A DNA stretch of 64,000 nt from Pyrinomonadaceae bacterium (GTDB lineage Bacteria; Acidobacteriota; Blastocatellia; Pyrinomonadales; Pyrinomonadaceae), in contig JBGAOU010000016.1 of assembly GCA_044221625.1 (NCBI GenBank), positions 12,709-76,708 on the forward strand, written 5' to 3'. Every line of letters begins with the position of its first letter. Position 1 is the stretch's first letter. A program made the translations under genes and the position numbers. Of this stretch, positions 43,252 through 59,503 are shown in pieces. Below the pieces are notes generated by a model. That model was not told where the DNA came from and searched no databases. It was given only the letters and a program-made list of their open reading frames with translations.

Positions 43252-43707
43252 ATGAGCGATAACAAATGGACAATGCCTGAACCGGTGTTTCGCAGCTCGA
43301 CGGGCGAGCTCGTCCGCCCGGGCGTGGCCGAGCCGATCGATCCGGAACCGGACACGCTCCAGCCCGAGGCTCCGGACGAGGATGAGGTCGTACTCGAGTT
43401 GCCGGACGACCCGCTGGCAAAGCTCTATGCCCCGCCCGAGGGCATGGCCGAACCCAAACCGCCCGCATCGGCCGCACCGGCAGCAGCCCATGTGCCGGCT
43501 GTCGAGATCGAACCCCAACCCTTTATTTCCGAGGAGTTTACTGCCGAGATCGCCGTGGCCGAGGTACGGCCCGCCGACCCGAAACGGTCTTCGGGGTCGG
43601 TGGTCGCGGCGCTCGTGTTCTTTGCCCTGGCGGCAATCGTGGTCGGGTTTATCGCGATCGTTTACTACCTGTTTTTCACCGGCCGCTCCGACGCCGGCGG
43701 ATTCTGA
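43252..43707 (+). CDS. acidic Pro-rich protein with C-terminal TM anchor
   Basis: 151 aa. PEP-rich low-complexity region followed by VVAALVFFALAAIVVGFIAIVYYLFF. Confidence 0.45.
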   Translation: MSDNKWTMPEPVFRSSTGELVRPGVAEPIDPEPDTLQPEAPDEDEVVLELPDDPLAKLYAPPEGMAEPKPPASAAPAAAHVPAVEIEPQPFISEEFTAEIAVAEVRPADPKRSSGSVVAALVFFALAAIVVGFIAIVYYLFFTGRSDAGGF

Positions 43708-43774: not shown

Positions 43775-45385
43775 ATGCAGGACGCGATACTAAAATTCGG
43801 CGGCGTTCAACGTGTGATCGACAGCGACGTTACCGCTATCGGCCGCACGTCGGACAACGCGGTCGCCTTTACGTCCGATACCAACGTGTCGCGCTATCAC
43901 GCCGAGATCGAACGCCGCGGCGGCGATCATTACCTCATCGACCTGCAGAGCAGCAACGGCACGACCGTCAACGGGACGCGCGTCAGCGGCGAGGTGCTAT
44001 TGGCTCCCGGAGACGTCATCGTATTTGGAGGTTCGAGCGAGGCCGTTTTTGACCTTGCTGACAGTTCGGCAAACCGCGCCGCCTCCGGCACCGACGCCGC
44101 GGGTGATAGCGGCCCGTCACTCGCCGACGCTCCGGGAATGTCGGCCGCCGGCAGCGAGTTCTCATCGCTCGGTTCACAGGCGTCGAGCGAGGCCGAATAT
44201 GCCGCCCGCAACGCCCTCCAACAGGGCATCAGCAACGCGACGGGCGCCGATGTGCCGACGTCGTCGTCAAATCCGACCGTGCTGATCGCCGGCATCGTCG
44301 TCGGGCTGGCGGTCGTCTGTGCGGTCGCGGCCGGTGCGTTTTACCTGACGCGCGGAACCTCCGCCTGCAACGCGACGGCCCGGATCGTCAAGCCCGAAGC
44401 CGGCGACACGATCAGCTCGCCGGTCGAGATCGAGGTCGAGTCCGACAACACCTCGTGCGTCGAACGTGCCGTCTTTCTACTTGACGGCCAGGAAGTCGCG
44501 ACGGCCGCCGGGCCTAATTTTTCGGCGACCCTCGACCCGAAAGAGCACCCCGAACTCGCCGACGGTGTCGATCACAGCCTCGAGATAGTGCTGATCGATC
44601 AGGACGGCCGTCAGATACCGCAGGGCGGCGGTATTGCCCTTGCTTTTGAAACGCGGGCCGTCGCCAAACCGTCGCAAACGCCGGTCGTCGCCCAGGCGAA
44701 CACCCAGCCCGGCAAGCCGGCGGGCCGCGGACAGCCTTCGCTGGTGCAGGTGAGCGATATGACACAGCGTCTGGTCAGGCAATTTTCGGGTAGTTTCAGC
44801 TACAACGTCTCGAACAAGCAATTTTTGCAAGAGGTGCAAAAGCGTGCGGCCGAATACGCGGTCGAGGGTTATTCGCAGCGGGCCGCAGTTTATCGCGACA
44901 CTATCAACACGGCGTTCGTCCGCGAACAGAACATCGATCCGCCGTTTGCCTACTTTACGGCGATGGCCCGCAGCCGGTTCGCCGTCGAAAAACAGGGCTC
45001 GGACGAGGGGCTTTGGCGATTGACGGCCGCCTTTGTCACCGACAACAAATACAACGGAATGTGCGGGACCGAGACGCTCTCCGACCCGTCGCAGACATGC
45101 GCCGCACGCTCGGCCGCACTGTACGCCAAGGCGTTGATCTTCGGCGTTTTTGACGGCGACACGATCTACGGCGCCATCGCCTTTGGCAAATCGCCGCAGG
45201 ACGCCGCCGCGTGGAAGGCGACTCTGCCGCAGAACCGCTCCGACGTTTGGAATTCGGTCCGGACACCGGCCGAACGCGAGCAGTTGGTGCGTTTTTTCGC
45301 GGCCGGGATCGTCGCCGAAAACCCGCAGGCGTTCGGGCTCACGAAGGACCGTCCGCTGTCGGACCTCTACCGCGTGGCGATGTAA
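43775..45385 (+). CDS. FHA domain - TM - Ig-like - degenerate SLT-like domain protein (paralog A)
   Basis: FHA: GRTSDNAVAFTSDTNVSRYHAEI..DLQSSNGTTVNG. TM: LIAGIVVGLAVVCAVAAGAFYL. The C-terminus is collinear with paralog B, but the catalytic E-S is replaced (AMARSR) and GLMQ becomes GLWRL. Confidence 0.75.
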   Translation: MQDAILKFGGVQRVIDSDVTAIGRTSDNAVAFTSDTNVSRYHAEIERRGGDHYLIDLQSSNGTTVNGTRVSGEVLLAPGDVIVFGGSSEAVFDLADSSANRAASGTDAAGDSGPSLADAPGMSAAGSEFSSLGSQASSEAEYAARNALQQGISNATGADVPTSSSNPTVLIAGIVVGLAVVCAVAAGAFYLTRGTSACNATARIVKPEAGDTISSPVEIEVESDNTSCVERAVFLLDGQEVATAAGPNFSATLDPKEHPELADGVDHSLEIVLIDQDGRQIPQGGGIALAFETRAVAKPSQTPVVAQANTQPGKPAGRGQPSLVQVSDMTQRLVRQFSGSFSYNVSNKQFLQEVQKRAAEYAVEGYSQRAAVYRDTINTAFVREQNIDPPFAYFTAMARSRFAVEKQGSDEGLWRLTAAFVTDNKYNGMCGTETLSDPSQTCAARSAALYAKALIFGVFDGDTIYGAIAFGKSPQDAAAWKATLPQNRSDVWNSVRTPAEREQLVRFFAAGIVAENPQAFGLTKDRPLSDLYRVAM

Positions 45386-45386
45386 A

Positions 45387-46799
45387 ATGAAGCAGGTCAC
45401 CCTTACATACCGAACGCCCAATGGCACGCAAACGATCGCGATCGACGGCGAACGGCTGTCGTTCGGACGCGGCAGCGAGGCCGATCAGCGGTTTGCCGAC
45501 AATGGCCTTTCGCGGCTGCACGCGGTCATTTACCGCGAGGGCGACCGCATCTGGATCGTCGACGAAAATTCGACCAACGGCACCTTTGTCAACGGCGAAC
45601 GCGTCGCCGCGGCCGGAACGCCGCTGCGCGACGGCGACCGTATCAATCTCGGCGATAACACGACCCTGACCGTCAGCGTCGCCGAACCAACTCCCGCCGC
45701 AGCCGCGGAGCCGCCCGCCGTTCAGTCGGTTTCGGCCGGCGCACCGCCGGCAAGTTTCGGTATGCTGCCCGTCATCGTAATTGCGGTCGCGATAATGGTG
45801 ATCAGTGTTTCGGCCGTTTTGATCGGTTTTGCGGTATTCGACAGCGGGCCGCAGATAGCGTCGAACCGCGACTTTGATGAGCCGATCGATGACGACCCGC
45901 GGCCTTCGCCGACGCAAAAACCGTCGGGTTCGCCGGCGTCATCGCCGGGAACCGCCGGCAATTCGAACGCCGCTGCCGACGACCTGCCAGCCAACGGGCC
46001 GGCCGGGCCGACGAACAACCTGCCGCCCGGCAAGAAATATGCCGAGATGACCGATACCGAACGCCGCCAGTACATCGAAGCAAAGGCGATGCGGATCGCC
46101 CAGATCATCGGCAACAGCGGCAGCGAGGCGATACCCGCCGCGGCCGTCGATAAGATCAAGGGGTTTGTTGACGGATACGCATCGCGGGCGAAGGTAAAGC
46201 CGCTCGGCGGATGCCGGTTCGGCGATAATCTGCAGGTGACGTTTGAACGCGCGAGCAAGAACGCACCTTTTGTCGTTCGCGCGTTCAACGAAAAAGGCAT
46301 CGATCCGCGGATCGGGCTCTATCTCGCGATGATCGAATCGGAACACTGCGTTTGCCTGCAGAGCCCGACCGGGCCGCTCGGGATGTTTCAGTTTACAAAG
46401 GCCACCGCCGAGATCCACGGCCTCAAGGTGATCTCCGGCGCTTCGCCGTCAAACCCCGACGAACGCTGTCAGCCCGAGCCCGCCGCGAGGGCCGCCGCGT
46501 CGTATATGAAGGCTCTGACCGGCCGCTACGGCACGGGCCCGGCGAGCGTACCGCTGGCGATCGGCAGTTATAACAGCGGCGAGGGCGGCCTGAGTTCGAA
46601 CCTGCAAAAGGCACTCGACTCAAACTCCGGGCTGCCGCGTGATTTTTGGACACTTATCGCAAACGGCGACAAGCTTTCGAAACAATTCCAGTCGGAGAAC
46701 TTCAAGTACGTTCCGAAGTTCTTTGCGGCCGCCATCATCGGCGAAAACCCGCAGGATTTCGGGCTGAACCTACAGCCCGTCTCGACGTATACCAAGTAG
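45387..46799 (+). CDS. FHA domain - TM - lytic transglycosylase (SLT) domain protein (paralog B, catalytic motifs intact)
   Basis: ORF 45150 trimmed to ATG 45387, 2 nt after the upstream stop. FHA: FGRGSEADQRFADNGLSRLHAVI..DENSTNGTFVNG. TM: LPVIVIAVAIMVISVSAVLIGFAVF. SLT motifs: LAMIESE (Glu codon 46335-46337), GPLGMFQF and AIGSYNSGEG. Confidence 0.8.
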   Translation: MKQVTLTYRTPNGTQTIAIDGERLSFGRGSEADQRFADNGLSRLHAVIYREGDRIWIVDENSTNGTFVNGERVAAAGTPLRDGDRINLGDNTTLTVSVAEPTPAAAAEPPAVQSVSAGAPPASFGMLPVIVIAVAIMVISVSAVLIGFAVFDSGPQIASNRDFDEPIDDDPRPSPTQKPSGSPASSPGTAGNSNAAADDLPANGPAGPTNNLPPGKKYAEMTDTERRQYIEAKAMRIAQIIGNSGSEAIPAAAVDKIKGFVDGYASRAKVKPLGGCRFGDNLQVTFERASKNAPFVVRAFNEKGIDPRIGLYLAMIESEHCVCLQSPTGPLGMFQFTKATAEIHGLKVISGASPSNPDERCQPEPAARAAASYMKALTGRYGTGPASVPLAIGSYNSGEGGLSSNLQKALDSNSGLPRDFWTLIANGDKLSKQFQSENFKYVPKFFAAAIIGENPQDFGLNLQPVSTYTK

Positions 46800-46815
46800 G
46801 ACCGCCGTCGCAACG

Positions 46816-48060
46816 ATGCCTGAACTTTTTCTCAAATTTAAGGACATCAACGGCCAGGAGCAACGCGTCCCGGTCGATAAGGTCAAGTTTGCCGTCGGGC
46901 GGCACTCGGCAAATGACCTCGCGATCGCTGACGGCCGGCTTTCGCGTGAGCACCTGCTGATCGAGCGTTTCGGAGATGTTTTTGTGGTCTCGGATCGCGG
47001 ATCGAGCAACGGCTCGAAACTGAACGGCGAGGCCCTGACCGCACCGGCGGCGATCACCGAAAATTGCCGTCTCGACCTGGGCGGATTTGAGATCGATGCC
47101 GAATTCGAGACGGACCAGCCGGAAGCTCAGCCCGCCGAGGAACCCGCGGCCGCCGCCGCACCTCCGGCCGCGCCGCCAGCCGCCCCTGCACCGGGTGGCA
47201 TCCCGACGAGCTTTTTTTATATTGCGCCGGCGGTCGCCGTTTTCATACTTGTCGGCGTGGGGCTGGCCTTGTTTCTGTTTGGCGGCAATGGGAAACAGCA
47301 AAATCGCGACATCGTCATAACCGACGACCCGATCGACGAGCCGGTCAAGCGAAAAACGCCGGTTGGACCGACCACTTCGGCCGCAAATTTGGGTGACGTT
47401 GTGCCGTCAGGCCCGACTCCGACGGGCAACACCGATGTGCCCGCGATGCCGCCCGCGGGTGACCTGACAGAAACCGCGAAACTCGAGGAAAACGCCAAGA
47501 GCTTTCTGCGGGCGATCGCACAGAATGACAAACGCGGCTTTATTACGGGTGCCAACGCCCAAATCGTCGGTGCCCGGATCGCCTCGATCAAGTCGAGTTC
47601 GTCGCTAGCCGACAACATCGCCTCGGCGCGAAAGAGCGCGGGCCAGATCCGCACGCTGGCACAATCAAAGAACCTAAAACCGCAGCTGCTCGCGGCGGCG
47701 GCGATCACAAAACTCGGTTCGCAACGCGGCGACGTGCTTCAGACCGCCCAGTCGATGGCCGATACGCTCGACAAATTGAGCGTTCAGGTCGGCAACGAGC
47801 TCGGCGACGATTGCCTGTTGATGATCGCCGCGTATGACCAGGGAGCCTCGGGCGACTTTATGCGGATGCGCAATATGCTGCAGAAACTTGCTACCGACTC
47901 GCCGCAGCTCGTCCGCGAGATCCGCACGATCTGGTACTTGAAAAAGAACGGCAAGATCACCGACAGCGAATACGATTTTGCCGTCCGTTTCCTTGCCGTC
48001 GGAACGATTATGCAAAATCCCAAGGCGTTTGGCGTCAATACTGAGGCACCTGGACTATAA
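46816..48060 (+). CDS. FHA domain - TM - degenerate SLT-like domain protein (paralog C)
   Basis: FHA: VGRHSANDLAIADGRLSREHLLI..DRGSSNGSKLNG. TM: FFYIAPAVAVFILVGVGLALFLF. The C-terminus keeps MIAAYDQGASG and the ..VGTIMQNPKAFGVN tail shared with A and B, but lacks the E-S catalytic motif. Confidence 0.75.
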   Translation: MPELFLKFKDINGQEQRVPVDKVKFAVGRHSANDLAIADGRLSREHLLIERFGDVFVVSDRGSSNGSKLNGEALTAPAAITENCRLDLGGFEIDAEFETDQPEAQPAEEPAAAAAPPAAPPAAPAPGGIPTSFFYIAPAVAVFILVGVGLALFLFGGNGKQQNRDIVITDDPIDEPVKRKTPVGPTTSAANLGDVVPSGPTPTGNTDVPAMPPAGDLTETAKLEENAKSFLRAIAQNDKRGFITGANAQIVGARIASIKSSSSLADNIASARKSAGQIRTLAQSKNLKPQLLAAAAITKLGSQRGDVLQTAQSMADTLDKLSVQVGNELGDDCLLMIAAYDQGASGDFMRMRNMLQKLATDSPQLVREIRTIWYLKKNGKITDSEYDFAVRFLAVGTIMQNPKAFGVNTEAPGL

Positions 48061-48064
48061 GATT

Positions 48065-48868
48065 ATGGAAAATGAAGAATGGGTAACCGGCAACATCGTT
48101 TTACGGGTACATGGTGAACCGCTCGAGATGCAGCTGACGGTACCGGCGGCACCGGTCAAACCGCAGCGGATGCTGCCGATCTTTCAGCAAATGTCGAGCG
48201 CAGTGGTCGATCTGAGCGTAAACTCGCTGGCCGGCGACAACATCGAGGTCTCGTGCAAGGCCGGCTGCGGAGCGTGCTGCCGTCAGGCGGTACCGATCTC
48301 GGAGGTCGAGGCATATCAGCTGGCCGACCTCGTCGCGGCGATGCCCGAGCCGCGTCAGTCAGTTATCAGAAAGCGGTTTGCCGACGCGCTCGCACATTTT
48401 GTCTCGATCAGGTGGTTTGACGAGCTGACCGACCTGCAGGACATGGCGTCGGCGCATCTGCCCGGATTTTCGCCAGAAAAGTACACTGAAACGGTCACGA
48501 ACTATATGAAGGAAGGCATTCCCTGCCCGTTCCTCGAGGACGAATCGTGTTCGATCCATCCCGACCGACCGCTGGTCTGCCGCGAATACCTGGTGACGTC
48601 GCCGGCCGAAAACTGTGCAAATCCGACCGCCGAAACCATCAAAAAGGTCCCGATCATCCTCAAGCCGTCAAAAGCGTTGCTAAAGGTCGGTCAGACCCGC
48701 AACACCGAGGGGCTCTCGTCGCTGATGATGATCGAGGCACTGGACTTTGTCGAGCGGCATCCGGACATCTTTGAGGAAAAGACCGGCGAGCGCTGGGCGG
48801 CCGATTTTTTCGGGCAGCTGACCCAGACCGAAATACCGGCCCCCGAAACGCCGGCCGACACGCTGTAG
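48065..48868 (+). CDS. YkgJ/UPF0153-type Cys-rich (CxxCxxCC) putative Fe-S/Zn protein
   Basis: CKAGCGACCRQ and CPFLEDESCSIHPDRPLVCREY. ORF 47978 trimmed to ATG 48065. Confidence 0.6.
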   Translation: MENEEWVTGNIVLRVHGEPLEMQLTVPAAPVKPQRMLPIFQQMSSAVVDLSVNSLAGDNIEVSCKAGCGACCRQAVPISEVEAYQLADLVAAMPEPRQSVIRKRFADALAHFVSIRWFDELTDLQDMASAHLPGFSPEKYTETVTNYMKEGIPCPFLEDESCSIHPDRPLVCREYLVTSPAENCANPTAETIKKVPIILKPSKALLKVGQTRNTEGLSSLMMIEALDFVERHPDIFEEKTGERWAADFFGQLTQTEIPAPETPADTL

Positions 48869-48976
48869 CGCTTGTTTCAACTGACCGGAAACTATCGCCC
48901 TGCAACGGGTTATTACGTGTTTTGCGCCATTTACTAATTGGCGAACTCGGTTTACTATTTACCTCTAAACTGGCTT

Positions 48977-50329
48977 ATGAGCAAATACCGAAAGATCGTC
49001 TGGAATGAAGGGATGCTGCTCACGCCGCATCACTTTCAGCAGTGGGACAACTACCACGAAGACCTGCTTCACTCACGTATCGGGTCGGTCGCCCCATTTT
49101 GCTACGGCATCCTCGACCTCAAGGTCAATAACGAGGCGATCGCTAACGCCAATTTTCAGATCACCCGCTGCCGGGCTGTGATGCCGGACGGCCTGATCGT
49201 AAATGTGCCCGATGTCGAATCGGTGCCCGATCTGCGGCCGGTCGGCGATCATTTTCACGCCGAGGCCGAGAAATTGGGCGTGCATCTGGCGATCCCGGCG
49301 ATGAAGGCCGGCGAGGCCAATTTTCAGGCAAACGGTGCAAAGGCAAGTTCGACGCTCAGGTACCTGCAGGAAGGCTCGCTCGCCAAGGACGAGACCAGCG
49401 GGACCAACGAACAGCCGCTCGCCTACGCCAAGAACAACCTTCGGATAATCTTTGACGACGAGCTCCGGGACGGATTTACCTCGATCAAGATCGCCGAACT
49501 CGAGCGAACGCCGACCGGGCAGCTGAAGATCTCGGACGACTACATTCCGCCGACGCTCAACTCGTCGAGCTCGGTTTGGCTCGGCGATATGATGCGCCAG
49601 TTCGTTGAGATATTGATCACCAAGAGCGGCAGCCTCGGCGAACAGCGTCGTCAGCGGCAGGCCGGATTGGCCGATTTTACGACCTCGGACACTGGCGTTT
49701 TCTGGCTGCTGCACACGATCAACTCGGCGATACCGGCGATGTCGCATTTTTTCCATTCGCCGCTGGTCCATCCGGAAAGGCTCTATCTCGAAATGGCGGG
49801 GCTGGTCGGAAAGTTGATGACATTTTCGACCGACTTTCACCCGCGGGACATCGTCAAGTACGACCACGACGACCTTTACTTTACGTTCTTTAACCTTGCG
49901 GCCCAGTTGCGGGAGCTGCTCGAAACGGTGATCCCGAGCCGGTGCGTCGCGATCCCGCTCGAAAAGACCCGCGAAACGCTCTACGTCGGCCGCGTCGAGG
50001 ACGAAAGGCTGCTCAAGGACGCCGCGTTCTATCTGGCCGTCCGTTCGCAGATCCCCGAGGCGAAGGTCATCGAGGGCGTTCCGCGTGTGGTTAAGATCGC
50101 CTCGCGCGACGTGATCGATTCGGTCATCGGGTCGGCACTGCCGGGCGTTGTTTTGACGCACGCCAATCCGCCGCCGGCCCCGATCCCGGCCCGTGTCGGC
50201 TTTAAGTACTTCCAACTTGATTCGATCGGACCGTATTGGGACGGGATCAAGGGCTCAAAGGTTTTGTCGGTGTACGTCCCCGACGAGATAACCGACGTCA
50301 AGCTCGAAATGTACGCGGTAAAACCCTAA
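48977..50329 (+). CDS. tssK: type VI secretion baseplate protein TssK
   Basis: N-terminal KIVWNEGMLLTPHHFQQWDNYHE is the TssK signature. ORF 48938 trimmed to ATG 48977. Context also supports the call. Confidence 0.85.
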   Translation: MSKYRKIVWNEGMLLTPHHFQQWDNYHEDLLHSRIGSVAPFCYGILDLKVNNEAIANANFQITRCRAVMPDGLIVNVPDVESVPDLRPVGDHFHAEAEKLGVHLAIPAMKAGEANFQANGAKASSTLRYLQEGSLAKDETSGTNEQPLAYAKNNLRIIFDDELRDGFTSIKIAELERTPTGQLKISDDYIPPTLNSSSSVWLGDMMRQFVEILITKSGSLGEQRRQRQAGLADFTTSDTGVFWLLHTINSAIPAMSHFFHSPLVHPERLYLEMAGLVGKLMTFSTDFHPRDIVKYDHDDLYFTFFNLAAQLRELLETVIPSRCVAIPLEKTRETLYVGRVEDERLLKDAAFYLAVRSQIPEAKVIEGVPRVVKIASRDVIDSVIGSALPGVVLTHANPPPAPIPARVGFKYFQLDSIGPYWDGIKGSKVLSVYVPDEITDVKLEMYAVKP

Positions 50330-50336
50330 TTGTCAT

Positions 50337-51014
50337 ATGGCCGAAATTGCCAGCAAAAACGATCTCGTGACCTTTGCCGGGCCGATCTTTGATCTGATCC
50401 TGCGCCTAAAGGCGAACATCGTCGCGCCGTCAAACGACCTTCGGCCAAAGATCGCCGGGCTGTTGGACGATTTTGAAAAGCGTGCCGAGCGATACAAGTT
50501 CAATCACAAGATCGTGTCCGTCTCAAAGTTTGCGTTGGCGTCATTTGTGGACGAGACGATCCTGACGAACAACTTCCCTTTGCGGTCGGAGTGGGAACGC
50601 AATCCGCTGCAGCTTGAATATTTTGGCGAGCAGCTGGCCGGCAATAAGTTTTTTGACAAGCTCGAATCGATGCTCCGCCAGATCGATGTCACGCAGGATG
50701 CGGTCGAGATCTATTACTACTGCATGCTGCTGGGATTCAAGGGCCGGTACGGTGTCTATGAACAGGAAAAATTGCTGGCGATAATGCAGTCGACCGCCAA
50801 CGCCCTGGTGAAGGCCGGAAAGATCAAACCGGTCGAACTGTCGCCGCACTGGCTGGCGAACGACCAACCCGAGGTCCCGAAGGATCGCGGATTGCCGACG
50901 TGGGCGAAGATCGGTGCATTTGGCGGGCTCGGCCTGGCGATGATCACATATTTGATAATGTTTTTGATGTCGTCGATGTACCTGAAAGAGGCCGTCGATA
51001 AGCTTCAGCGATAG
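50337..51014 (+). CDS. tssL: type VI secretion membrane protein TssL (DotU family)
   Basis: DotU-like FALASFVDETIL...YYYCMLLGFKGRY plus a C-terminal TM segment. Position is between tssK and tssM. Confidence 0.85.
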   Translation: MAEIASKNDLVTFAGPIFDLILRLKANIVAPSNDLRPKIAGLLDDFEKRAERYKFNHKIVSVSKFALASFVDETILTNNFPLRSEWERNPLQLEYFGEQLAGNKFFDKLESMLRQIDVTQDAVEIYYYCMLLGFKGRYGVYEQEKLLAIMQSTANALVKAGKIKPVELSPHWLANDQPEVPKDRGLPTWAKIGAFGGLGLAMITYLIMFLMSSMYLKEAVDKLQR

Positions 51015-51026
51015 TTATACGGGAAT

Positions 51027-54000
51027 ATGAGCTCTTGGCACACAAGCCAATTATCATACGCGTTCGGCATCGGCGGGATGATGTCGTTTTACGGCATTGT
51101 CGGCGTGATCGTGTATATGCTGCCGCCGAGCAGTGTCGGTAATACCGAAAAGATCGTCATCATCGCCCTCGTTCTGCTGACGCTGCCGTTTGCGTTGCTC
51201 ATCGCGTTCTTTGGAGCCCGTCGACGCAAAAAGCGTGAAGCCGCCGAAGCCGCGGCAGCAGGTGCCGCCGACCCGGCCGCAGCGGAAACGACCGCTAAGG
51301 CCGTCGCCGCCCCGACCGGCAAATACCCCGAACTTGAACAAGGCATCAGCGAAACGGTCCAGTTCCTGCGATCGTCAAACCTGGGCGAAGGCGGCAAGGA
51401 CGCACTTTACTCACTGCCGTGGTACATAGTCGCGGGCCCGCCGCGAAGCGGAAAGACCTCGCTGATCGTCGGCTCGGACCTTGATTTTCAGACACTCCCG
51501 AGCCAACGGCAGTCCGAGCAGAAATTTGTCCGTGCGACAACCTCGGTCAGCTGGCGGGTCACCAGCGAAGCTGTCTTTATTGACACCTCGGGCCGATATC
51601 AGACCGAGGGTGCCGACAGCGACGAGTGGAGTTCTCTGTTGGAACTTATCCGCAAAAACCGGCCAAATCGACCGATCGACGGTTTTTTGATAGCGGTCGA
51701 TGTCGAACAGATCATAAAGGGCGACGACCGCGGATCGGAGGAGATCGCAAAGGTCCTCAGGGCCCGTATCGACGACGCGATCCAGCGGCTCAAGGTCCGG
51801 TTTCCGGTTTACACGGTATTTACACATGCCGACGGCATCGAGGGATTTCGGGATTCATTTTCGATCTCAAAGAACGACGGCCGGTCGCTCGTTTGGGGCT
51901 CGACGATACCGCTCGACAAGGGCGAAAACGGCCAGTCGATGTTTGACGGCGAATTTGAACTGCTGCATAACTCGGCGATGAAACGCCGGCTGCTCAGGCT
52001 TTCGGCGCCGTTCCCGCCGGTCAGGCAGCTTCGAATTTTCAATTTCCCGCTGCATTTCGGCTCGGCACGCCGCAAGATCGGAGCGTTTGTCGGGACGCTT
52101 TTCCGGCCCAATCCGTTCAGCGAAAATCCGCTGTTCCGCGGGTTCTATTTCAGTGCGTCGCCGGCTGCAAAGTCGAGCCCGAACGCACCGCAGACCGTCG
52201 CCGACACCTACTTTACACATCGCTTTTTCCGGGATGTCCTGCTGCGGGACAAGGATGTCGTCCGTGCCTTTCAGGCGCAGAAGCAGGGAGCCCCGCTGCT
52301 CGGATGGGCGTCGATCTTTCTCGGAGCGGCCTTGACCATTCTGCTGCTCGCGTTATCGGGTGTTTCGCTTTACAACAACAAGAAGATGCTTGAGGACGCG
52401 CGGGCCCGCGGCGAGGCATTGATAGCGATCACGCAGACCCAGGCGTACAAAGACCCGGCAAAAGCTGACGAAAAGGCGACGCGAAACGAGATCGAGGCGA
52501 CCGAGGGACTCCGCGAACTGATCGTCAAGCTCGATGATTACGAGCGGAACGGTGCCCCGTGGTATATGCGTTTCGGGCTGTATTCGGGCAACAAGGTTTA
52601 CAAACAGCACCTGCTGAAGGTCTATATGGACGTGATCGAACACCGGTACAAGACCGCGACGATCGCCAAGGTCCAGGCCGACCTGAAGAAGTTCGCCGCT
52701 TCGAATCCGGTCATAAACCCGTCTCAGTTGACCGATGCCGAAGAGGCTCTGCTCGGCAAGAATTACGATCTGCTCAAGGCCTATCTGATGCTCGCCGGGC
52801 CGTACAAGGACAAAGCCGATTCGGCCCACATCGCCAGCGCGCTAAAAGATTACTGGACGACCGAGGGCAAGATCCCGGCCGACCTTAAGCCGAAAGCCGC
52901 GTTGCAGCTCGAGTTTTGGGCAAAACAGGTCGACCGCGACGATGAGGATTACGGATTTCCGCGGATACCGGTCGATGACAAACTGGTCGCCGACACACGG
53001 GCAAAACTGCAGGCTTTTCCCGCGGTCTTCAGATACTACAAGCGAAAGGTCACCGAGATATCCAAGACCGTCGATGAAAAGGTCGGCCCCACGACCGTCG
53101 ATGCAATTCTCGCCCGCAACGGCGCTGACGCCCGCTTTCTGGATGGCGCGTTTCAAGTCCGCAGCATCTTTACTCGTTCCGGCAACGAGTTGATGAAAAA
53201 AGCGATCGCCGAGGCTGACGAAAAACTGAGCGAAGACGATTGGGTAATGGGCGAGGTCGGCAAGTCGAAGATCGCTCAAACGACCGATTCCAAGAAACTC
53301 GAGGACCGCTATTACCGCGATTACGCCGATGAGTGGCGTGCGTTTGCCAAAGGGATCACCGTCAAACCGTACAAGACAAAAGAGGACGCGGCAGCGGCAC
53401 TGCAGGTATTTTCGCTCGAAAACTCGCCGATGAAGGTGCTGATGATCGAGATCTCGCGCAATACAAACCTCTCGGCACCGCCCGAAGTGGTCGGTTGGTG
53501 GGACTGGATCAAAAGCTTTTTTGTCTCACAGGAGAACGCCAACGCCGGTGGCACGCCGCCCGAAAAGGAATTTCAGCCGCTCTTTGAATTTGTCGGAAAG
53601 AAGGGCCAGAAGGACCGTGCCCCGATCGACAATTACGCAGCGGCACTGCAAAACGTCTATAAGAACCTGAACGGCATTTCGGCCGAAAAGCTCAAACAGG
53701 TCTCAGACGACCTCGCTAACGAAAAGGACGACGGCCTGAAACTGGTCTCGAATGAGCGTGCGATCACCGGCATGATCCAGAGCTTTACCACATCCTCAAC
53801 GCAGGAACTGGCGACCGTTCTGCAGCAGCCGCTCGGCAATCTCAAGAGCCTGCTCGGCCAGGGTGCTCAGGATCAGCTCAAAAAGGCCTGGAACGAACAG
53901 ATCATGCCCGCCGCCAAGGAGATCGAAAAGGGATTTCCGTTCGAAGACGGCCAGACCGAATCTGACCTGACAAAGCTGACGGCGTTCCTTAACCCGACGG

Positions 54001-54608
54001 ACGGCAAGCTTTCCAAATTCTACGACGACAGGCTGAAGAAGTATTTTGAGGAATCTAACGGTCAGTTGAAGCTCAAAGAAACGGCCGAGATCAAGTTTAG
54101 CGACGAGTTCGTGGCGTATCTGAACAACGCATTCGCCCTTAGAAAGGCTCTGTACGGGTCGGGCAACACGCCGAAGTTCGAATATGCATTTGCACTGAAG
54201 GTCGGCAAGGATTCGCTGGTCGAGGTGACCATCGACGGTCAAAAGGTCACGTCCGAGGGAACCGCGTCGATCAACGGCACGTTCCCCGCCGCCCAGTCGG
54301 CCGAAACGGGCGTGATCGTCAGTTCAGGTGCATCGGGTGCAACGACAACGGGACCGCCCGCCAGCACAAACTCAGCTGTGCCGCCGCCGACATCGTCAGA
54401 CTCGTCATCGCTTAAATTCCCTGGCACGTGGGGATTGTTCCGGTTCGTTGATGCCGGCAAGCCGCAGAAACAGGCGGGCGGTGAATACAATCTCAGCTAT
54501 TCGGTAGGCGGCAAGTCGGTCTCGGCGACGATCAAACCGAGCGGCGGAGACCTTTTTGACAAGAGCATATTCAGACGGGTCAAGGCTCCGCAAAATATGC
54601 TCAAGTAG
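51027..54608 (+). CDS. tssM: type VI secretion membrane ATPase-like protein TssM (IcmF family)
   Basis: 1193 aa with N-terminal TM helices and Walker A GPPRSGKTS. IcmF-like length and context. Confidence 0.9.
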   Translation: MSSWHTSQLSYAFGIGGMMSFYGIVGVIVYMLPPSSVGNTEKIVIIALVLLTLPFALLIAFFGARRRKKREAAEAAAAGAADPAAAETTAKAVAAPTGKYPELEQGISETVQFLRSSNLGEGGKDALYSLPWYIVAGPPRSGKTSLIVGSDLDFQTLPSQRQSEQKFVRATTSVSWRVTSEAVFIDTSGRYQTEGADSDEWSSLLELIRKNRPNRPIDGFLIAVDVEQIIKGDDRGSEEIAKVLRARIDDAIQRLKVRFPVYTVFTHADGIEGFRDSFSISKNDGRSLVWGSTIPLDKGENGQSMFDGEFELLHNSAMKRRLLRLSAPFPPVRQLRIFNFPLHFGSARRKIGAFVGTLFRPNPFSENPLFRGFYFSASPAAKSSPNAPQTVADTYFTHRFFRDVLLRDKDVVRAFQAQKQGAPLLGWASIFLGAALTILLLALSGVSLYNNKKMLEDARARGEALIAITQTQAYKDPAKADEKATRNEIEATEGLRELIVKLDDYERNGAPWYMRFGLYSGNKVYKQHLLKVYMDVIEHRYKTATIAKVQADLKKFAASNPVINPSQLTDAEEALLGKNYDLLKAYLMLAGPYKDKADSAHIASALKDYWTTEGKIPADLKPKAALQLEFWAKQVDRDDEDYGFPRIPVDDKLVADTRAKLQAFPAVFRYYKRKVTEISKTVDEKVGPTTVDAILARNGADARFLDGAFQVRSIFTRSGNELMKKAIAEADEKLSEDDWVMGEVGKSKIAQTTDSKKLEDRYYRDYADEWRAFAKGITVKPYKTKEDAAAALQVFSLENSPMKVLMIEISRNTNLSAPPEVVGWWDWIKSFFVSQENANAGGTPPEKEFQPLFEFVGKKGQKDRAPIDNYAAALQNVYKNLNGISAEKLKQVSDDLANEKDDGLKLVSNERAITGMIQSFTTSSTQELATVLQQPLGNLKSLLGQGAQDQLKKAWNEQIMPAAKEIEKGFPFEDGQTESDLTKLTAFLNPTDGKLSKFYDDRLKKYFEESNGQLKLKETAEIKFSDEFVAYLNNAFALRKALYGSGNTPKFEYAFALKVGKDSLVEVTIDGQKVTSEGTASINGTFPAAQSAETGVIVSSGASGATTTGPPASTNSAVPPPTSSDSSSLKFPGTWGLFRFVDAGKPQKQAGGEYNLSYSVGGKSVSATIKPSGGDLFDKSIFRRVKAPQNMLK

Positions 54609-54628
54609 CCGTCGAATTGGAGGATATT

Positions 54629-55423
54629 ATGCAAAACGCAAAACAATTGCTGGAGTCGGGCGATCTGACGGGTTCGATCGCGTCGGTGCTGGATCACGTT
54701 CGTGATAATCCGACCGACATTCCGGCGAGAATATTCCTGTTCGAACTTTCGTGCTTTTCCGGTGACTGGGATCGGGCCGAAAAGCAGCTCGACGTTATAG
54801 GCCATCAGGATGCCAACGCGATGATCGGATCGCTGATCTACCGTAATAATTTCAAGGCCGAACGCGATCGCGAGCGTTATTTTACCGACGGGCTCAAGCC
54901 CGGCATCATCGCACCGCCGCCGACCTATGTCGAGGACCTGATCCAGGCCAACAATCGTATCCGTGAGGGCAATGTCGCCGAGGCCCGCGAGATGCTCGAC
55001 CGGATCGAAGAAGAACGTCCGGCATTCAAGGCGTCCGTGAACGGCGGCGAGGTCAGTGATTTTCGCGACTATAACGACTCGACGATGTGCATCTTTGAGG
55101 TGATATTCAAGGATTCGTACGTCTGGCTGCCGATCGAACAGGTGCAGAGCATCGAGTTCTTTAAACCGGCGTCGCTGCGGGACCTTTTCTGGATACAAGC
55201 CAAGGTCGAACTTGTCGACGGCACCAACGGCGAGATGTTCTTCCCGTCGCTCTATTCGGGCTCATACCATAGCGGCAATGACATGGTCAGACTCGGCCGA
55301 ATGACGGATTGGCGTGACCTCGGGTCGGAGCTTTTCGCCGGCGAAGGACTAAAATTATATTGGATGGACGGCAGGGACAGGTCGATACTTGACCTCGAAA
55401 CCATCGTGTTCGAGCACGAGTAG
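54629..55423 (+). CDS. tagJ: T6SS accessory protein TagJ (ImpE/SciE family)
   Basis: TPR-like N-terminus (AKQLLESGDLTGSIASVLDHVRDNPTD...) and an ImpE-like C-terminal half. ATG 54629 within ORF 54617. Confidence 0.65.
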   Translation: MQNAKQLLESGDLTGSIASVLDHVRDNPTDIPARIFLFELSCFSGDWDRAEKQLDVIGHQDANAMIGSLIYRNNFKAERDRERYFTDGLKPGIIAPPPTYVEDLIQANNRIREGNVAEAREMLDRIEEERPAFKASVNGGEVSDFRDYNDSTMCIFEVIFKDSYVWLPIEQVQSIEFFKPASLRDLFWIQAKVELVDGTNGEMFFPSLYSGSYHSGNDMVRLGRMTDWRDLGSELFAGEGLKLYWMDGRDRSILDLETIVFEHE

Positions 55424-55539
55424 GCCGTCGATCAAGAAAAATAGTGATTTATATCTATTTTTCGGATAGAATGAAGCGTATTTCAGCAAATTCTTGAGAT
55501 CCGAACGTCTTTGTCTATTAGTAGCAAGGAGTTTTTCGA

Positions 55540-56733
55540 ATGAATGAGGAATTGTCGGTTCCGCAAGTGATCGACCTCGATGCACTGCTTCAACCGGTGT
55601 CGGAAGAGTCGCCGTCGGGCGAAAGCCTGCGATATTCGGGCCTCTACGACGAGATCGTCGAAGCACGCCGCTCGGATGACAACCTGAGCCAGGGCGAGTG
55701 GCAGACCGAACTTAAGGTCGCTGATTACCGAAAGGTCGTGGAACTTGCCGTTCCCGCCCTGACCTCAAAGGCCAAGGATCTGCAGGTCGCCGCCTGGCTC
55801 TCAGAATCGCTGATAAAAAATTACGGCTTTGCCGGCCTCCGCGACAGCCTCAAACTCGTCAGCGGGCTGCAGGATCATTTTTGGGATACGCTCCATCCGG
55901 TTATCGACGAAGGCGACATGGAGGGGCGGGCAAACGCGATCTCGTGGCTCGACGTCCAGGGAGCAAATGCCATCAAGACCTGTCCGATCACGGGCGGGCC
56001 CGGCTATTCATACAATGATTGGCTGACGGCACGGTCGCTCGAAACGCCGGCCAATTTTGACTCGCTCGACCCTGAAAAACAACAGGAATTCAACAACCTG
56101 AAAGCGCAGGCCGAAACTGACGGCCGCGTGACCGGCGACCTTTGGAAGATAGCGGTCGGCAAGACAAAACGTGCCCAGGCAGAGTCGATCAATCACACGA
56201 TCGAAGAGTGCTGGGAGGCATTTGCCGAACTTAATCGCGTCATCGAGGAAAAATACGACCGCAATCAAATGCCCGGACTCGGGGCCCTAAAACGCGCGCT
56301 TGATGATGTTCACGGACAGGTCAAAAAGATACTCGAACGAAAACGCCTCGAAGAACCCGATGAAACCGATGCGAGTGAAGAATGGACGTCAACCGAAGAC
56401 GACGGGGCCGAGGTCCCGGAAACCGGCGGTTCGTCGTCGATGACGGGTGCGGTCAAGTCGCGGGCCGACGCGCTCAAGCGGCTGTCCGAGATCGCTGTTT
56501 TCTTTCAGCGGACCGAACCGCACAGCCCGGTCGCGTACCTGGTAAACCGGGCTGTCAAGTGGGGCAATATGCCGCTCGACAGCTGGCTTCAGGAGGTCAT
56601 TAAAGACACGGCCACGCTCGAGCAGGTGAACGAAATGCTCGGTATCGGCGGTTCCTCCGGCGGCGGCGACTATTACTCGGCACCGGCGGAAGAAACCCCG
56701 GATCAAGGTTCGAGTTCGAGTGATGAGTGGTAA
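55540..56733 (+). CDS. tssA: type VI secretion protein TssA (ImpA N-terminal domain)
   Basis: LLQPVSEESPSGESLRYSGLYDEIVEARR (ImpA_N signature) and the C-terminal EPHSPVAYLVNRAVKWGNMPL. RBS AAGGAG. Confidence 0.85.
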   Translation: MNEELSVPQVIDLDALLQPVSEESPSGESLRYSGLYDEIVEARRSDDNLSQGEWQTELKVADYRKVVELAVPALTSKAKDLQVAAWLSESLIKNYGFAGLRDSLKLVSGLQDHFWDTLHPVIDEGDMEGRANAISWLDVQGANAIKTCPITGGPGYSYNDWLTARSLETPANFDSLDPEKQQEFNNLKAQAETDGRVTGDLWKIAVGKTKRAQAESINHTIEECWEAFAELNRVIEEKYDRNQMPGLGALKRALDDVHGQVKKILERKRLEEPDETDASEEWTSTEDDGAEVPETGGSSSMTGAVKSRADALKRLSEIAVFFQRTEPHSPVAYLVNRAVKWGNMPLDSWLQEVIKDTATLEQVNEMLGIGGSSGGGDYYSAPAEETPDQGSSSSDEW

Positions 56734-56842
56734 CGCCGCGGGCTGAAACGGAAGCGCCCTTTTCAGACGTACCCGATGCCCGATGAGATTTTGCAATTAT
56801 TGGTCTTAGATAAATGGTTAAAGCCTAAGGAGAAAATAGAAC

Positions 56843-58740: not shown

Positions 58741-58758
58741 CATTCGCCGACGCCGACG

Positions 58759-58789
58759 GGCACGGAGTTTCGCAACTGAACTCCGTGCC
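58759..58789 (+). terminator. 11-bp-stem hairpin between tssC and hcp (attenuator/partial terminator candidate)
   Basis: GGCACGGAGTT - 9-nt loop - AACTCCGTGCC. The T-rich run comes only 16 nt further on. Confidence 0.4.
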
Positions 58790-58914
58790 GGTCGCCCGGC
58801 TAGTTTATTTTTTTCGCTTACTTCGCAAAAAAAACTATCGGTATCGTCTTTATGATGTGGGTAGTTCGGAGATAGCAGAAACGCTTTTCCATCAAATAAA
58901 AGGAGCAAAATAAA

Positions 58915-59400: not shown

Positions 59401-59439
59401 CTTTACACCTCAGCCCGGCTTCGGTCGGCAGGCAGATCG

Positions 59440-59486
59440 GCAGGGCTGTATCGCGAATCGGTGCAGCCCTGCAAATTAGTTTTTTG
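59440..59486 (+). terminator. hairpin + T-run after hcp
   Basis: GCAGGGCTG - 15-nt loop - CAGCCCTGC, then AAATTAG and TTTTTT. Confidence 0.5.
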
Positions 59487-59503
59487 TCCGGTATTTGGCT
59501 TTT

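What the first reader, a model, noticed from the sequence alone, without database searches (positions are those of the whole stretch)
43775..48060. Three tandem FHA - TM - periplasmic SLT-like paralogs directly upstream of a TssJ-less T6SS: one enzyme and two pseudo-enzymes
- All three proteins share the same layout: a cytoplasmic FHA domain, a low-complexity linker, a single TM helix, and a periplasmic C-terminal domain ending in a shared ..(A/V)(A/G)(I/T)I(G/M/V)(E/Q)NP(Q/K)(D/A)FG(L/V)N tail.
- Only the middle one (45387-46799) retains the lytic-transglycosylase motifs: MIESE, GPLGMFQF and SYNSGEG.
- Paralog A has AMARSR/GLWRL at those positions plus an extra Ig-like module. Paralog C has lost the E-S motif altogether.
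- T6SS clusters commonly encode a soluble FHA scaffold (Fha/TagH) read by a PpkA/PppA phospho-switch. Some recruit a separate peptidoglycan hydrolase, such as MltE via TssJ, or TagX.
- Here no kinase, phosphatase or TssJ is visible.

The two functions, phosphothreonine reading in the cytoplasm and cell-wall opening in the periplasm, appear fused into one transmembrane protein and then triplicated. I do not know of this module being described.
Basis: partly seen in the sequence, partly recalled or inferred. Interest (0 to 1): 0.72.

Follow-up and report, generated by a model that had tools for sequence, protein, structure and literature searches.

The report
FHA–membrane–transglycosylase trio of acidobacterial T6SS
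Three neighbouring genes at the head of a type VI secretion (T6SS) cluster in a soil acidobacterium each encode a membrane protein with a phosphothreonine-reading FHA domain inside the cell and a cell-wall-cutting (or catalytically dead) lysozyme-like domain outside; this looks like an undescribed accessory module that opens and grips the cell wall for the secretion machine.

Summary
ORFs A (43775-45385), B (45387-46799) and C (46816-48060) are each FHA / one TM helix / periplasmic domain.

- **B** is a bona fide SLT lytic transglycosylase. Its E-S, GLMQ-like and AYNxG-like motifs are invariant in 121 orthologs.
- **A** has an Ig module plus an SLT fold, with an invariant Arg in place of the catalytic Glu.
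- **C** is a divergent helical relative of the SLT domain that lacks the catalytic segment.

The trio sits upstream of TssK-L-M-TagJ-A-B-C-Hcp-E-F-G-ClpV-VgrG-PAAR, separated from TssK by one YkgJ-like gene. The cluster has no TssJ, kinase, phosphatase, TagH or TagL, and its TssL has no peptidoglycan-binding domain.

In Pyrinomonadaceae genomes, A precedes B in 75/75 loci, C follows B in 74/75, and TssK follows in 58/61. Five of six distant relatives (35-39% identity, different flanks) keep the link to the T6SS. One fuses the B and C periplasmic domains into a single chain and has a Ser/Thr kinase nearby.

Best reading: a T6SS-dedicated transmembrane cell-wall-opening and anchoring complex, docked through phosphothreonine. 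The genetic association is shown; the mechanism is inferred. I found no prior description. It is a new variant of known kinds (TagH, TagX, MltE).

The parts
43252..43707 (+). Small tail-anchored membrane protein (151 aa, one C-terminal TM helix). It is a conserved upstream neighbour and only a possible member of the module.
   Evidence: It has no Pfam or NCBIfam family. The TM helix lies at about residues 115-143. It is 38% identical to the gene at the same position in L001 and is detectable in about half of the family loci.
43775..45385 (+). Paralog A: FHA (res 21-85, nt 43835-44029), TM (~res 167-190, nt 44273-44344), Ig-like Big_7 module (res 201-261 by Pfam, ~201-291 in the model, nt 44375-44647), low-complexity linker, then a pseudo-lytic-transglycosylase domain (~res 323-536, nt 44741-45382). 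Arg399 (nt 44969-44971) occupies the catalytic-Glu position.
   Evidence: Pfam FHA E 2.3e-18 and Big_7 E 1.2e-6. The AF2 model has pLDDT 85. Foldseek hits FN3/Ig modules at E 1.7e-5, MltD at E 3.4e-4 and Slt at E 1e-3. hhalign against B gives 97.7%. R399 is invariant in 121 orthologs and is R or Q in four distant A-types.
45387..46799 (+). Paralog B: FHA (res 25-89, nt 45459-45653), TM (~res 125-150, nt 45759-45836), Pro/Ser-rich linker, then a periplasmic module (res ~215-470, nt 46029-46796) containing an active-type SLT domain (res 301-408, nt 46287-46610). The catalytic Glu317 is at nt 46335-46337.
   Evidence: Pfam FHA E 1.1e-17 and SLT E 1.3e-14. The best PDB sequence matches are T7 gp16 transglycosylase (E 4e-10) and P. 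aeruginosa MltD (E 3.6e-7). E317-S318, GPLGMFQF and SYNSGEG are invariant in 121 orthologs. E317 is invariant in 28 distant representatives.
46816..48060 (+). Paralog C: FHA (res 27-89, nt 46894-47082), TM (~res 133-156, nt 47212-47283), linker, then an all-helical periplasmic domain (res ~217-414, nt 47464-48057). This domain is a degenerate SLT relative lacking the E-S/GLMQ segment.
   Evidence: Pfam FHA E 2e-12 and no SLT hit. The AF2 model has pLDDT >90 over the domain. The top Foldseek hits are MltD (E 0.1, prob 0.99), g-type lysozymes and MltE/F/C, all weak. hhalign against B gives 83.7%, E 8e-6, with the catalytic segment deleted. A C-type domain is fused behind a B-type domain in P0385.
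48071..48868 (+). YkgJ-like CxxCxxCC (putative Zn/Fe-chelating) protein between paralog C and tssK.
   Evidence: Pfam PF03692 E 5.6e-9. It is present between C and TssK in 51 of 58 family loci and absent from the distant loci.
48938..54608 (+). tssK (48938-50329), tssL (50337-51014; 225 aa, ends just after its TM helix, so it has no peptidoglycan-binding domain) and tssM (51027-54608).
   Evidence: Pfam T6SS_VasE E 4e-126, DotU E 7e-45 and IcmF-related domains. The TssL TM helix is at residues 192-216 of 225.
54617..64000 (+). tagJ/impE, tssA, tssB (3' end altered by a 109-nt deletion relative to close relatives), tssC, hcp, tssE, tssF, tssG and clpV (starts 62951 and runs off the window).
   Evidence: Pfam assignments. 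ClpV N-terminus. In the 99%-identical contig L091 the cluster continues with ClpV, a 198-aa unknown protein, VgrG, a 264-aa unknown protein and a PAAR-like protein, then ends. tssB deletion.

Best explanation
A, B and C are accessory subunits of the adjacent TssJ-less T6SS. Together they form a transmembrane cell-wall module.

**Periplasmic side.** B's MltD-like lytic transglycosylase domain cuts glycan strands locally so that the TssL-TssM membrane complex and the tube can cross the murein. The catalytically dead domains of A (with its extra Ig module) and C act as partners of B. They could bind peptidoglycan or regulate the enzyme. That would supply the wall anchoring this system lacks, because TssL has no PG-binding domain and there is no TagL or TssJ.

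**Cytoplasmic side.** The three FHA domains keep every canonical phosphothreonine-binding residue. I propose they dock the module onto phosphorylated sites. The kinase would be encoded elsewhere in this lineage and next to the module in a distant one. The target could be TssL, as in Agrobacterium, or the trio's own linkers. Wall cutting would then occur only where and when a T6SS assembles.

**Shown:** domain architecture, active versus dead catalytic sites, deep conservation, synteny with the T6SS, and a B-C domain fusion.

**Inferred:** complex formation with A, PG binding by A and C, the pThr ligand, and the requirement for T6SS activity.
For: **Architecture and catalytic status.**
- establish the domains and the active site of B.
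- Searches show an SLT fold for A; searches show a weak resemblance for C.
- The enzyme/pseudo-enzyme split is ancient: all distant B-types keep IE(S/T)E and all distant A-types have R or Q.

**Synteny within the family** (80 Pyrinomonadaceae/Blastocatellia species genomes plus one further genome contig, L001).
- A lies upstream of B in 75/75 loci, C downstream in 74/75, and TssK downstream in 58/61.
- Intergenic gaps are 1-69 nt and all genes are on the same strand.

**Synteny in distant relatives.** Relatives 35-39% identical to B keep the FHA genes immediately before TssK-TssL-TssM, even though their upstream flanks differ or, in two loci, were not visible. These are L085/86, L087, L096, L097 and L098. 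In L098 TssM has been inverted to the other side, yet the FHA pair still abuts TssK.

**Rosetta-stone fusion.** P0385 carries a B-type domain (res 211-451) followed by a C-type domain (res 458-652, E 1e-22) in one chain, and that locus has no separate C gene.

**FHA domains.**
- The GR, SxxH and NG residues are invariant in about 121 orthologs of each paralog.
- The closest solved FHA domains are the pThr-binders Rv0020c and GarA.
- A Pkinase-FGE-sulfatase gene lies about 3 kb upstream of the FHA pair in L098.

**The cluster lacks the usual parts for these roles.**
- No TssJ, TagL, TagX, TagH, PpkA or PppA.
- TssL has no PG-binding domain.

**Precedents.** TagX (a locus-encoded PG hydrolase anchored in the inner membrane), MltE recruited to the membrane complex, and Agrobacterium p-TssL binding Fha (review PMC13584744).
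Against: - No experiment and no direct interaction evidence exists.
- Three of 61 family loci (L054, L080, L083) keep A-B(-C) with no T6SS gene within about 9 kb downstream. One distant locus (L084) has B and C followed by outer-membrane barrels. The genes may therefore work without an adjacent T6SS, or the T6SS may lie elsewhere in those genomes.
- Within the family, a housekeeping CBS-PLP gene is just as syntenic. Family-level synteny alone is therefore weak, and the argument rests on the distant loci.
- The same ectodomain family is fused to Ser/Thr kinases in non-T6SS contexts.
- Six of 28 distant B-type proteins have lost pThr-binding residues.
- C's structural resemblance to LTs is statistically weak.
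- The membrane topology is inferred from domain logic, not predicted robustly.
Confidence: 0.5

Rival explanations
1. **Phospho-independent structural scaffold.** The three proteins are structural inner-membrane components of the T6SS membrane complex. Their FHA folds would serve as phosphate-independent protein-protein modules, as in the T3SS proteins YscD/PrgH. Their periplasmic domains would form a collar that substitutes for TssJ. Catalysis by B would be secondary.
For: - All three FHA domains score above the gathering threshold for Yop-YscD_cpl, PF16697.
- The locus has no kinase or phosphatase.
- 6 of 28 distant B-types have lost the Arg/Ser/Asn pThr-binding residues, and Pfam no longer detects FHA in P0431.
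- TssJ is absent.
Against: - The pThr-binding residues are invariant in about 121 orthologs of each of the three paralogs.
- A Hanks-type kinase is adjacent in L098.
- B's catalytic motifs are also invariant, which argues that catalysis matters.
- None of the three proteins has a lipobox or an obvious way to reach the outer membrane, so they cannot replace TssJ's outer-membrane anchoring.
Confidence: 0.2
2. **General cell-wall regulators.** The trio is a housekeeping, phospho-regulated murein-remodelling complex, comparable in logic to the actinobacterial FhaA/FhaB-PknB wall regulation. It would merely be a conserved chromosomal neighbour of the T6SS.
For: - L054, L080 and L083 keep the genes without an adjacent T6SS, and L084 likewise.
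- The housekeeping CBS gene is equally syntenic in the family.
- The ectodomain family also occurs alone or on kinases, DUF5715 proteins and TPR proteins outside T6SS loci.
- The FHA domains are most similar to mycobacterial FhaA/FhaB and GarA.
Against: - Five of six informative distant loci, with different flanks or with the upstream side not visible, still place the FHA genes directly before TssK. This holds even after the cluster rearrangement in L098.
- The genes are tightly packed on the same strand as the T6SS genes.
- In L054, C appears frameshifted where the T6SS is missing, which is what decay after loss of the partner system would look like.
Confidence: 0.15
3. **Periplasmic damage or contact sensor.** The lysozyme-like ectodomains, especially the dead ones, bind muropeptides or damaged murein produced by an attacker. 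They would transmit this across the membrane to nucleate T6SS assembly at that site. This would be functionally analogous to the TagQRST-PpkA-Fha1 tit-for-tat pathway.
For: - The same ectodomain sits on transmembrane Ser/Thr kinases, a classic sensor architecture.
- Two of the three paralogs are conserved pseudo-enzymes, which are typical binding modules.
- FGE-sulfatase-domain kinase and sensor genes accompany the module in distant loci.
Against: - There is no evidence for ligand binding or signalling.
- An FHA domain is a reader, not a transmitter, so a single-pass FHA protein has no obvious output.
- B's strictly conserved catalytic site points to cutting rather than sensing.
Confidence: 0.1

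Closest known systems
TagH / Fha1 (T6SS-associated FHA protein, TIGR03354)
   Same: It has an N-terminal FHA domain and is encoded in T6SS loci. In characterised systems it reads pThr on PpkA/TagE or on TssL to licence assembly (PMC13584744).
   Different: TagH has no SLT domain. A, B and C match the TagH model only over the FHA part (30-40 bits against a cut-off of 120). Each has a TM helix and a periplasmic SLT-type domain. No PpkA, PppA or TagF is in this locus.
TagX (Acinetobacter/Burkholderia T6SS L,D-endopeptidase)
   Same: It is a T6SS-locus-encoded, inner-membrane-anchored peptidoglycan hydrolase with a periplasmic catalytic domain. In Acinetobacter it works in a TssJ-less system and interacts with TssL/TssM (PMC13584744).
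   Different: TagX is a VanY-type peptidase, not a GH23 lytic transglycosylase. It has no cytoplasmic FHA domain and no pseudo-enzyme paralogs.
MltE recruited by the EAEC T6SS membrane complex
   Same: It is a family-1 lytic transglycosylase that opens the murein for T6SS membrane-complex assembly (PMC13584744).
   Different: MltE is a housekeeping outer-membrane lipoprotein encoded outside the T6SS locus and recruited by the membrane complex. Here the LT is locus-encoded, anchored in the inner membrane, fused to FHA, and TssJ is absent.
MltD-type (family 1D) lytic transglycosylases and phage T7 gp16 N-terminal transglycosylase
   Same: They are the closest sequence and structure relatives of B's catalytic domain (E 3.6e-7 and 4e-10). 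MltD is also the best structural match for A and C.
   Different: MltD has LysM domains, which B lacks. T7 gp16 is a phage internal core protein. Neither has a cytoplasmic signalling domain.
FHA-TM-periplasmic subunits of other envelope machines (T3SS YscD/PrgH; Myxococcus GltG)
   Same: They share the overall layout: a cytoplasmic FHA fold, one TM helix and a periplasmic domain that builds or anchors a trans-envelope machine. A, B and C hit Yop-YscD_cpl and, weakly, GltG.
   Different: From my own knowledge, their periplasmic parts are ring-building motifs or TonB-C-like domains, not lysozyme-like domains, and the YscD FHA lacks pThr-binding residues. A, B and C keep those residues.
TagL / TagN / TagP / TagW (OmpA-like PG-anchoring T6SS accessories)
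   Same: They have the role proposed for the dead domains of A and C: anchoring the membrane complex to murein when TssL lacks its own PG-binding domain (PMC13584744).
   Different: The fold is unrelated (OmpA/MotB-like rather than lysozyme-like), and PG binding by A and C is untested.

Membership tests
Family-1 lytic transglycosylase (SLT, PF01464 / GH23) | Sequence match to the SLT domain above Pfam's gathering score | tested here: met
   B scores 54.2 bits against a cut-off of 21.3. A and C have no hit, so this row is met for B only.
Family-1 lytic transglycosylase (SLT, PF01464 / GH23) | Catalytic Glu in the E-S motif, plus the GLMQ-like and AYNxG-like motifs | tested here: met
   In B, E317-S318, GPLGMFQF and SYNSGEG are invariant in 121 orthologs, and E317 is invariant in 28 distant representatives.
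Family-1 lytic transglycosylase (applied to paralogs A and C) | Catalytic Glu present | tested here: not met
   A has Arg399, invariant in 121/121 orthologs and R or Q in distant A-types. In C the E-S/GLMQ segment is deleted in the profile alignment. A and C are therefore homologs of the fold but not enzymes of the family.
Family-1 lytic transglycosylase (applied to paralogs A and C) | Lysozyme-like/SLT fold | tested here: inconclusive
   For A this is met: Foldseek hits MltD at E 3.4e-4 and Slt at E 1e-3 over about 210 columns, and hhalign against B gives 97.7%. For C it is weak: the best hit is MltD at E 0.1 with TM 0.38-0.47 normalised to the targets, and hhalign against B gives 83.7%, E 8e-6.
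Family-1 lytic transglycosylase | Muralytic activity producing 1,6-anhydroMurNAc products | not testable with these tools
   This needs a biochemical assay.
FHA domain (PF00498), phosphothreonine-binding type | Domain match plus the conserved Arg (GR), Ser/His (SxxH) and Asn (NG) residues | tested here: met
   The E-values are 2e-18, 1e-17 and 2e-12. These residues are invariant in about 121 orthologs of A, B and C, except that B's His is Asn in 19. pThr binding itself was not tested.
TagH/Fha (TIGR03354, T6SS-associated FHA protein) | Full-length match above the NCBIfam cut-off, including the TagH C-terminal region | tested here: not met
   A scores 30.4 bits and B 40.5 bits against a cut-off of 120.25, covering only model positions about 16-116 of 420. 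C has no listed hit.
TagH/Fha (TIGR03354) | Partner PpkA/TagE kinase and PppA/TagG phosphatase in the locus | tested here: not met
   None is present among the scanned ORFs of the window or in the rest of the cluster. A Pkinase-FGE-sulfatase gene is adjacent only in the distant locus L098.
T3SS YscD/PrgH inner-ring protein | Cytoplasmic FHA-like domain matching PF16697 | tested here: met
   The scores are 33.4, 46.3 and 39.6 bits against a cut-off of 33.2. PF16697 overlaps the general FHA model.
T3SS YscD/PrgH inner-ring protein | Periplasmic ring-building motifs and a T3SS gene context | tested here: not met
   The periplasmic parts are Ig plus SLT-like domains, and the context is a T6SS.
Canonical T6SS-i cluster | Core genes TssA-G, K, L, M, Hcp, ClpV, VgrG and PAAR | tested here: met
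   All were found in the window or in the 99%-identical contig L091. tssB carries a 109-nt 3' deletion in the window.
Canonical T6SS-i cluster | TssJ outer-membrane lipoprotein | tested here: not met
   No T6SS-SciN hit and no candidate lipoprotein was found in the cluster. The unassigned 198-aa and 264-aa proteins lack a lipobox. A copy elsewhere in the genome cannot be excluded.

The most novel reading that the evidence does not exclude
Acidobacterial T6SSs may use a dedicated three-subunit transmembrane 'murein gate': one active lytic transglycosylase and two dead paralogs, each wired to its own cytoplasmic phosphothreonine reader. This gate would merge the TagH checkpoint, the MltE/TagX wall-breaching step and the TagL/TssJ anchoring role into a single complex. 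It would define a new membrane-complex architecture for TssJ-less T6SSs, and would be the first case in which the phospho-checkpoint is physically coupled to cell-wall opening.
Probability: 0.3. Interest if true: 0.75.

Novelty: new variant of a known kind. Interest (0 to 1): 0.6.

Why it matters
How T6SS membrane complexes cross and grip the peptidoglycan is understood in only a few proteobacterial models: MltE via TssJ-TssM, TagX, and TagL. How TssJ-less systems manage is largely open.

This module is conserved in hundreds of soil Acidobacteriota genomes. It offers a compact, testable alternative in which the wall-cutting enzyme is part of the locus, anchored in the inner membrane, and carries its own phosphothreonine reader. 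Two conserved pseudo-enzyme paralogs could explain anchoring.

It also gives a natural system for studying how dead lytic transglycosylases are re-used. The related kinase-SLT fusions hint at a wider family of transmembrane proteins that couple peptidoglycan-facing SLT domains to Ser/Thr phospho-signalling.

If the module is not T6SS-specific, it is still a new class of phospho-linked murein enzymes in a major soil phylum.

Tried and rejected
- **Defence-system models.** PADLOC found no hits for A, B, C or their neighbours.
- **Promoter and terminator scans** around the trio gave nothing above shuffled expectation. Co-transcription is therefore inferred only from spacing and strand.
- **TssJ candidates.**
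  - The 198-aa gene between clpV and vgrG is cytoplasmic-looking, with no signal peptide or lipobox.
  - The 264-aa gene after vgrG has one TM helix but no lipobox.
  - The 151-aa upstream gene is tail-anchored, not a lipoprotein.
- **Kinase or phosphatase in the window.** Pfam scans of most predicted ORFs of 150 aa or more, plus six-frame motif scans for HRDxKxxN and PP2C motifs, found none.
- **TagH membership** was rejected on score.
- **Contexts of kinase-TM-SLT relatives** (P0407, P0408, P0422) lay on short contigs with no T6SS genes. One was next to an ECF sigma factor and one next to another kinase. No link between these kinases and the T6SS could be made.
- **Taxonomy of the distant loci.** The genome-collection scan returned only the 80 closest (family-level) loci, and cluster look-ups gave a name for only one (Acidobacteriota, P0385). 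The taxonomy of most distant loci is therefore unknown.
- **Literature searches** for prior descriptions found nothing specific.
- **Not done.** The metagenome scan and the third fold search were not used.

Full report
**1. What is in the sequence**

Three same-strand ORFs occupy 43775-48060. A is 536 aa, B is 470 aa and C is 414 aa, separated by gaps of 1 and 16 nt.

- Pfam finds an N-terminal FHA domain in each (E 2e-18, 1e-17, 2e-12).
- A has a Big_7 Ig domain.
- Only B has an SLT lytic-transglycosylase domain (E 1.3e-14).
- Each protein has one hydrophobic helix between the FHA and the C-terminal region.

FHA domains are cytoplasmic and SLT domains act on murein. The topology is therefore taken to be N-in/C-out; this is inferred.

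**2. Are the C-terminal domains paralogous, and which are enzymes?**

*Paralogy*
- A and B align by BLASTP over about 200 residues (E 2e-9).
- Profiles built from 121 orthologs each give A-B 97.7% probability (E 1.4e-12).
- The same comparison gives C-B 83.7% (E 8e-6). C lacks about 25 residues that cover the E-S and GLMQ motifs.

*Structure models*
- The AF2 model of A's periplasmic part (pLDDT 85) consists of an Ig/FN3 module plus a helical domain. That domain matches MltD (E 3.4e-4) and Slt (E 1e-3).
- C's domain models with pLDDT >90. It finds lytic transglycosylases and goose-type lysozymes only weakly (best E 0.1).

*Catalytic residues*
- B's E317-S318, GPLGMFQF and SYNSGEG are invariant in 121 orthologs, and E317 is also invariant in 28 distant representatives.
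- A has an invariant Arg at the Glu position. Four distant A-types have R or Q there.

'One enzyme and two pseudo-enzymes' is therefore correct, and the split is old.

B's nearest solved relatives are the T7 gp16 transglycosylase and P. aeruginosa MltD. The shared C-terminal 'tail' lies within the stretch of B that aligns to the MltD chain.

**3. Context**

*Downstream.* Immediately after C come:
- a YkgJ-like CxxCxxCC gene;
- TssK, TssL, TssM, TagJ, TssA, TssB, TssC, Hcp, TssE, TssF and TssG;
- the start of ClpV.

A contig 99% identical to the window shows the rest: ClpV, a 198-aa cytoplasmic unknown, VgrG, a 264-aa unknown and a PAAR-like protein, followed by genes on the opposite strand.

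*What is absent.*
- The cluster has no TssJ, PpkA, PppA, TagF, TagH, TagL or TagX.
- No kinase or PP2C phosphatase was found anywhere in the 64 kb.
- TssL ends nine residues after its TM helix, so it has no PG-binding extension.

*Upstream.* There is a small tail-anchored protein, a CBS-PLP enzyme and, further up, Rhs and Tox-REase-7 toxin cassettes.

**4. Relatives**

All three proteins have hundreds of orthologs in Pyrinomonadaceae/Blastocatellia MAGs. These are annotated only as 'FHA domain-containing protein'.

| Measure (80 species-level genome loci plus L001) | Result |
|---|---|
| A precedes B | 75/75 |
| C follows B | 74/75 |
| TssK follows within reach | 58/61 |

A housekeeping CBS gene is equally syntenic. 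Family-level synteny alone therefore does not prove a functional link.

*Distant loci.* The decisive evidence comes from relatives only 35-39% identical to B, found through the 50%-cluster library.
- L085/86, L087, L096, L097 and L098 all place FHA / FHA-SLT / (FHA) directly before TssK-TssL.
- Where the upstream side could be read it differs from the window: FGE-sulfatase, DUF4384, trypsin-like and kinase genes in L087, L097 and L098. In L085/86 and L096 the upstream genes were not annotated.
- In L098 TssM is inverted to the far side of the locus, yet the FHA pair still abuts TssK.

*Exceptions.*
- L054, L080 and L083 keep the trio or pair with no T6SS within about 9 kb. In L054, C looks frameshifted.
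- L084 has B and C followed by outer-membrane barrels.

**5. Two extra clues**

- In P0385 (L098, an Acidobacteriota MAG) a B-type active domain is followed in the same chain by a C-type dead domain (E 1e-22). No separate C gene exists in that locus. This Rosetta-stone fusion argues that the B and C ectodomains work together physically.
- L098 encodes a Ser/Thr kinase with an FGE-sulfatase domain about 3 kb upstream of the FHA pair. The pThr-binding residues of all three FHA domains are invariant in the window's family, so phospho-reading is plausible. However, 6 of 28 distant B-types have lost these residues.

**6. Wider family**

The periplasmic module of B (about residues 210-470) also occurs in other architectures:
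- on its own;
- with DUF5715 or in a large protein that also carries TPR repeats;
- behind N-terminal Ser/Thr kinase domains (P0407, P0408, P0422).

The few contexts retrieved for these kinase fusions are not T6SS loci. This SLT subfamily is therefore a recurrent ectodomain of transmembrane phospho-signalling proteins in these bacteria.

**7. Interpretation**

The best-supported reading is a T6SS accessory complex.
- B opens the murein for the TssL-TssM complex.
- The dead A and C domains partner B and probably bind the wall. This would compensate for the missing TssJ/TagL and for the bare TssL.
- The FHA domains tether the module to phosphorylated sites on the cytoplasmic side.

Candidate pThr ligands include TssL. 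Its Thr12 is conserved in 51/58 relatives, and Agrobacterium p-TssL binds Fha (PMC13584744).

The association and the active/dead assignment are shown. The mechanism is inferred.

Three rivals remain open and are weighed in the report sections: a phospho-independent YscD-like scaffold, a general cell-wall regulator that is only a neighbour of the T6SS, and a damage sensor.

**8. Comparison with known systems and novelty**

The roles have precedents (review PMC13584744):
- TagH, an FHA reader;
- TagX, a locus-encoded, inner-membrane-anchored PG hydrolase in TssJ-less Acinetobacter;
- MltE, a lytic transglycosylase recruited to the membrane complex;
- TagL, a PG anchor.

A, B and C are not members of TagH (30-40 bits against a cut-off of 120), nor of TagX (a different enzyme class).

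The new elements are the fusion of an FHA reader to a lytic transglycosylase across the membrane, its triplication into one enzyme and two conserved pseudo-enzymes, and its consistent placement at the head of a TssJ-less T6SS. I found none of this in the literature I could search.

I rate it a new variant of known kinds, of solid but not extreme interest, pending experiments.

Noticed in passing
window ~57221 (tssB, 56843-57295): Relative to the closest contig (L091, 98.7-99.3% identical) the window lacks 109 nt inside the 3' part of tssB. The ORF is 150 aa with a frameshifted tail, against 169 aa in relatives. This could be a real inactivating deletion or an assembly error.
   Followed up: partly
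L098:10001-11959 (protein P0385, Acidobacteriota MAG GCA_040758525.1): A single 652-aa protein carries FHA, a TM helix, a B-type active SLT domain and then a C-type dead domain (hmmsearch E 1e-22). The locus has no separate C gene. This is a natural fusion of two of the window's paralogous ectodomains.
   Followed up: yes
L098:3347-7244; L097:2097-4343; L087:3763-4854: Distant versions of the module are preceded by FGE-sulfatase-domain proteins and, in L097 and L098, DUF4384 proteins. In L098 the FGE-sulfatase domain is fused to a Ser/Thr kinase. These may be the sensor and kinase arm that is missing from the window's locus.
   Followed up: no
proteins P0407, P0408, P0422 (loci L002, L089, L090): The same SLT-type periplasmic module is found behind N-terminal Hanks-type Ser/Thr kinase domains (kinase-TM-SLT, 646-828 aa). 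One such gene is next to an ECF sigma factor and one next to another kinase. No T6SS genes lie on these short contigs.
   Followed up: partly
window 48071-48868: A YkgJ-like CxxCxxCC (putative Zn/Fe-binding) gene is wedged between paralog C and tssK. It is present in 51 of 58 family loci and absent from the distant loci. Its role in a T6SS cluster is unknown.
   Followed up: partly
window 43252-43707: A small tail-anchored membrane protein has a conserved N-terminal W-x-(M/L)-P-x-PVFRS motif and no known family. It lies between the CBS gene and paralog A in many relatives.
   Followed up: partly
window 30129-41444: An array of Rhs-repeat proteins (30129-34265, 34964-37330) sits with small downstream ORFs, a Tox-REase-7 toxin (39513-40790) and a HEAT-repeat protein. 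GC content here is 46-50%, against 55-64% around it. These are probably T6SS effector/immunity and orphan cassettes.
   Followed up: no
L091:15675-16271 and L091:19117-19911: Two conserved genes of unknown function lie in the cluster. One is a 198-aa cytoplasmic protein between clpV and vgrG. The other is a 264-aa single-TM protein between vgrG and the PAAR-like gene. Neither is a lipoprotein.
   Followed up: partly
L054:11630-12926; L080; L083: Three family genomes keep the FHA genes with no adjacent T6SS. L054 has CRISPR-Cas genes downstream and an apparently frameshifted C. L080 has only A-B, flanked by an OmpA-family gene and a beta-propeller protein. L083 has a heptosyltransferase gene downstream.
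   Followed up: partly
window 50337-51014 (TssL): Thr12 in the TssL N-terminus is conserved in 51 of 58 relatives. This recalls the phosphorylated N-terminal Thr of Agrobacterium TssL that recruits Fha. It is a speculative candidate ligand for the FHA domains.
   Followed up: no
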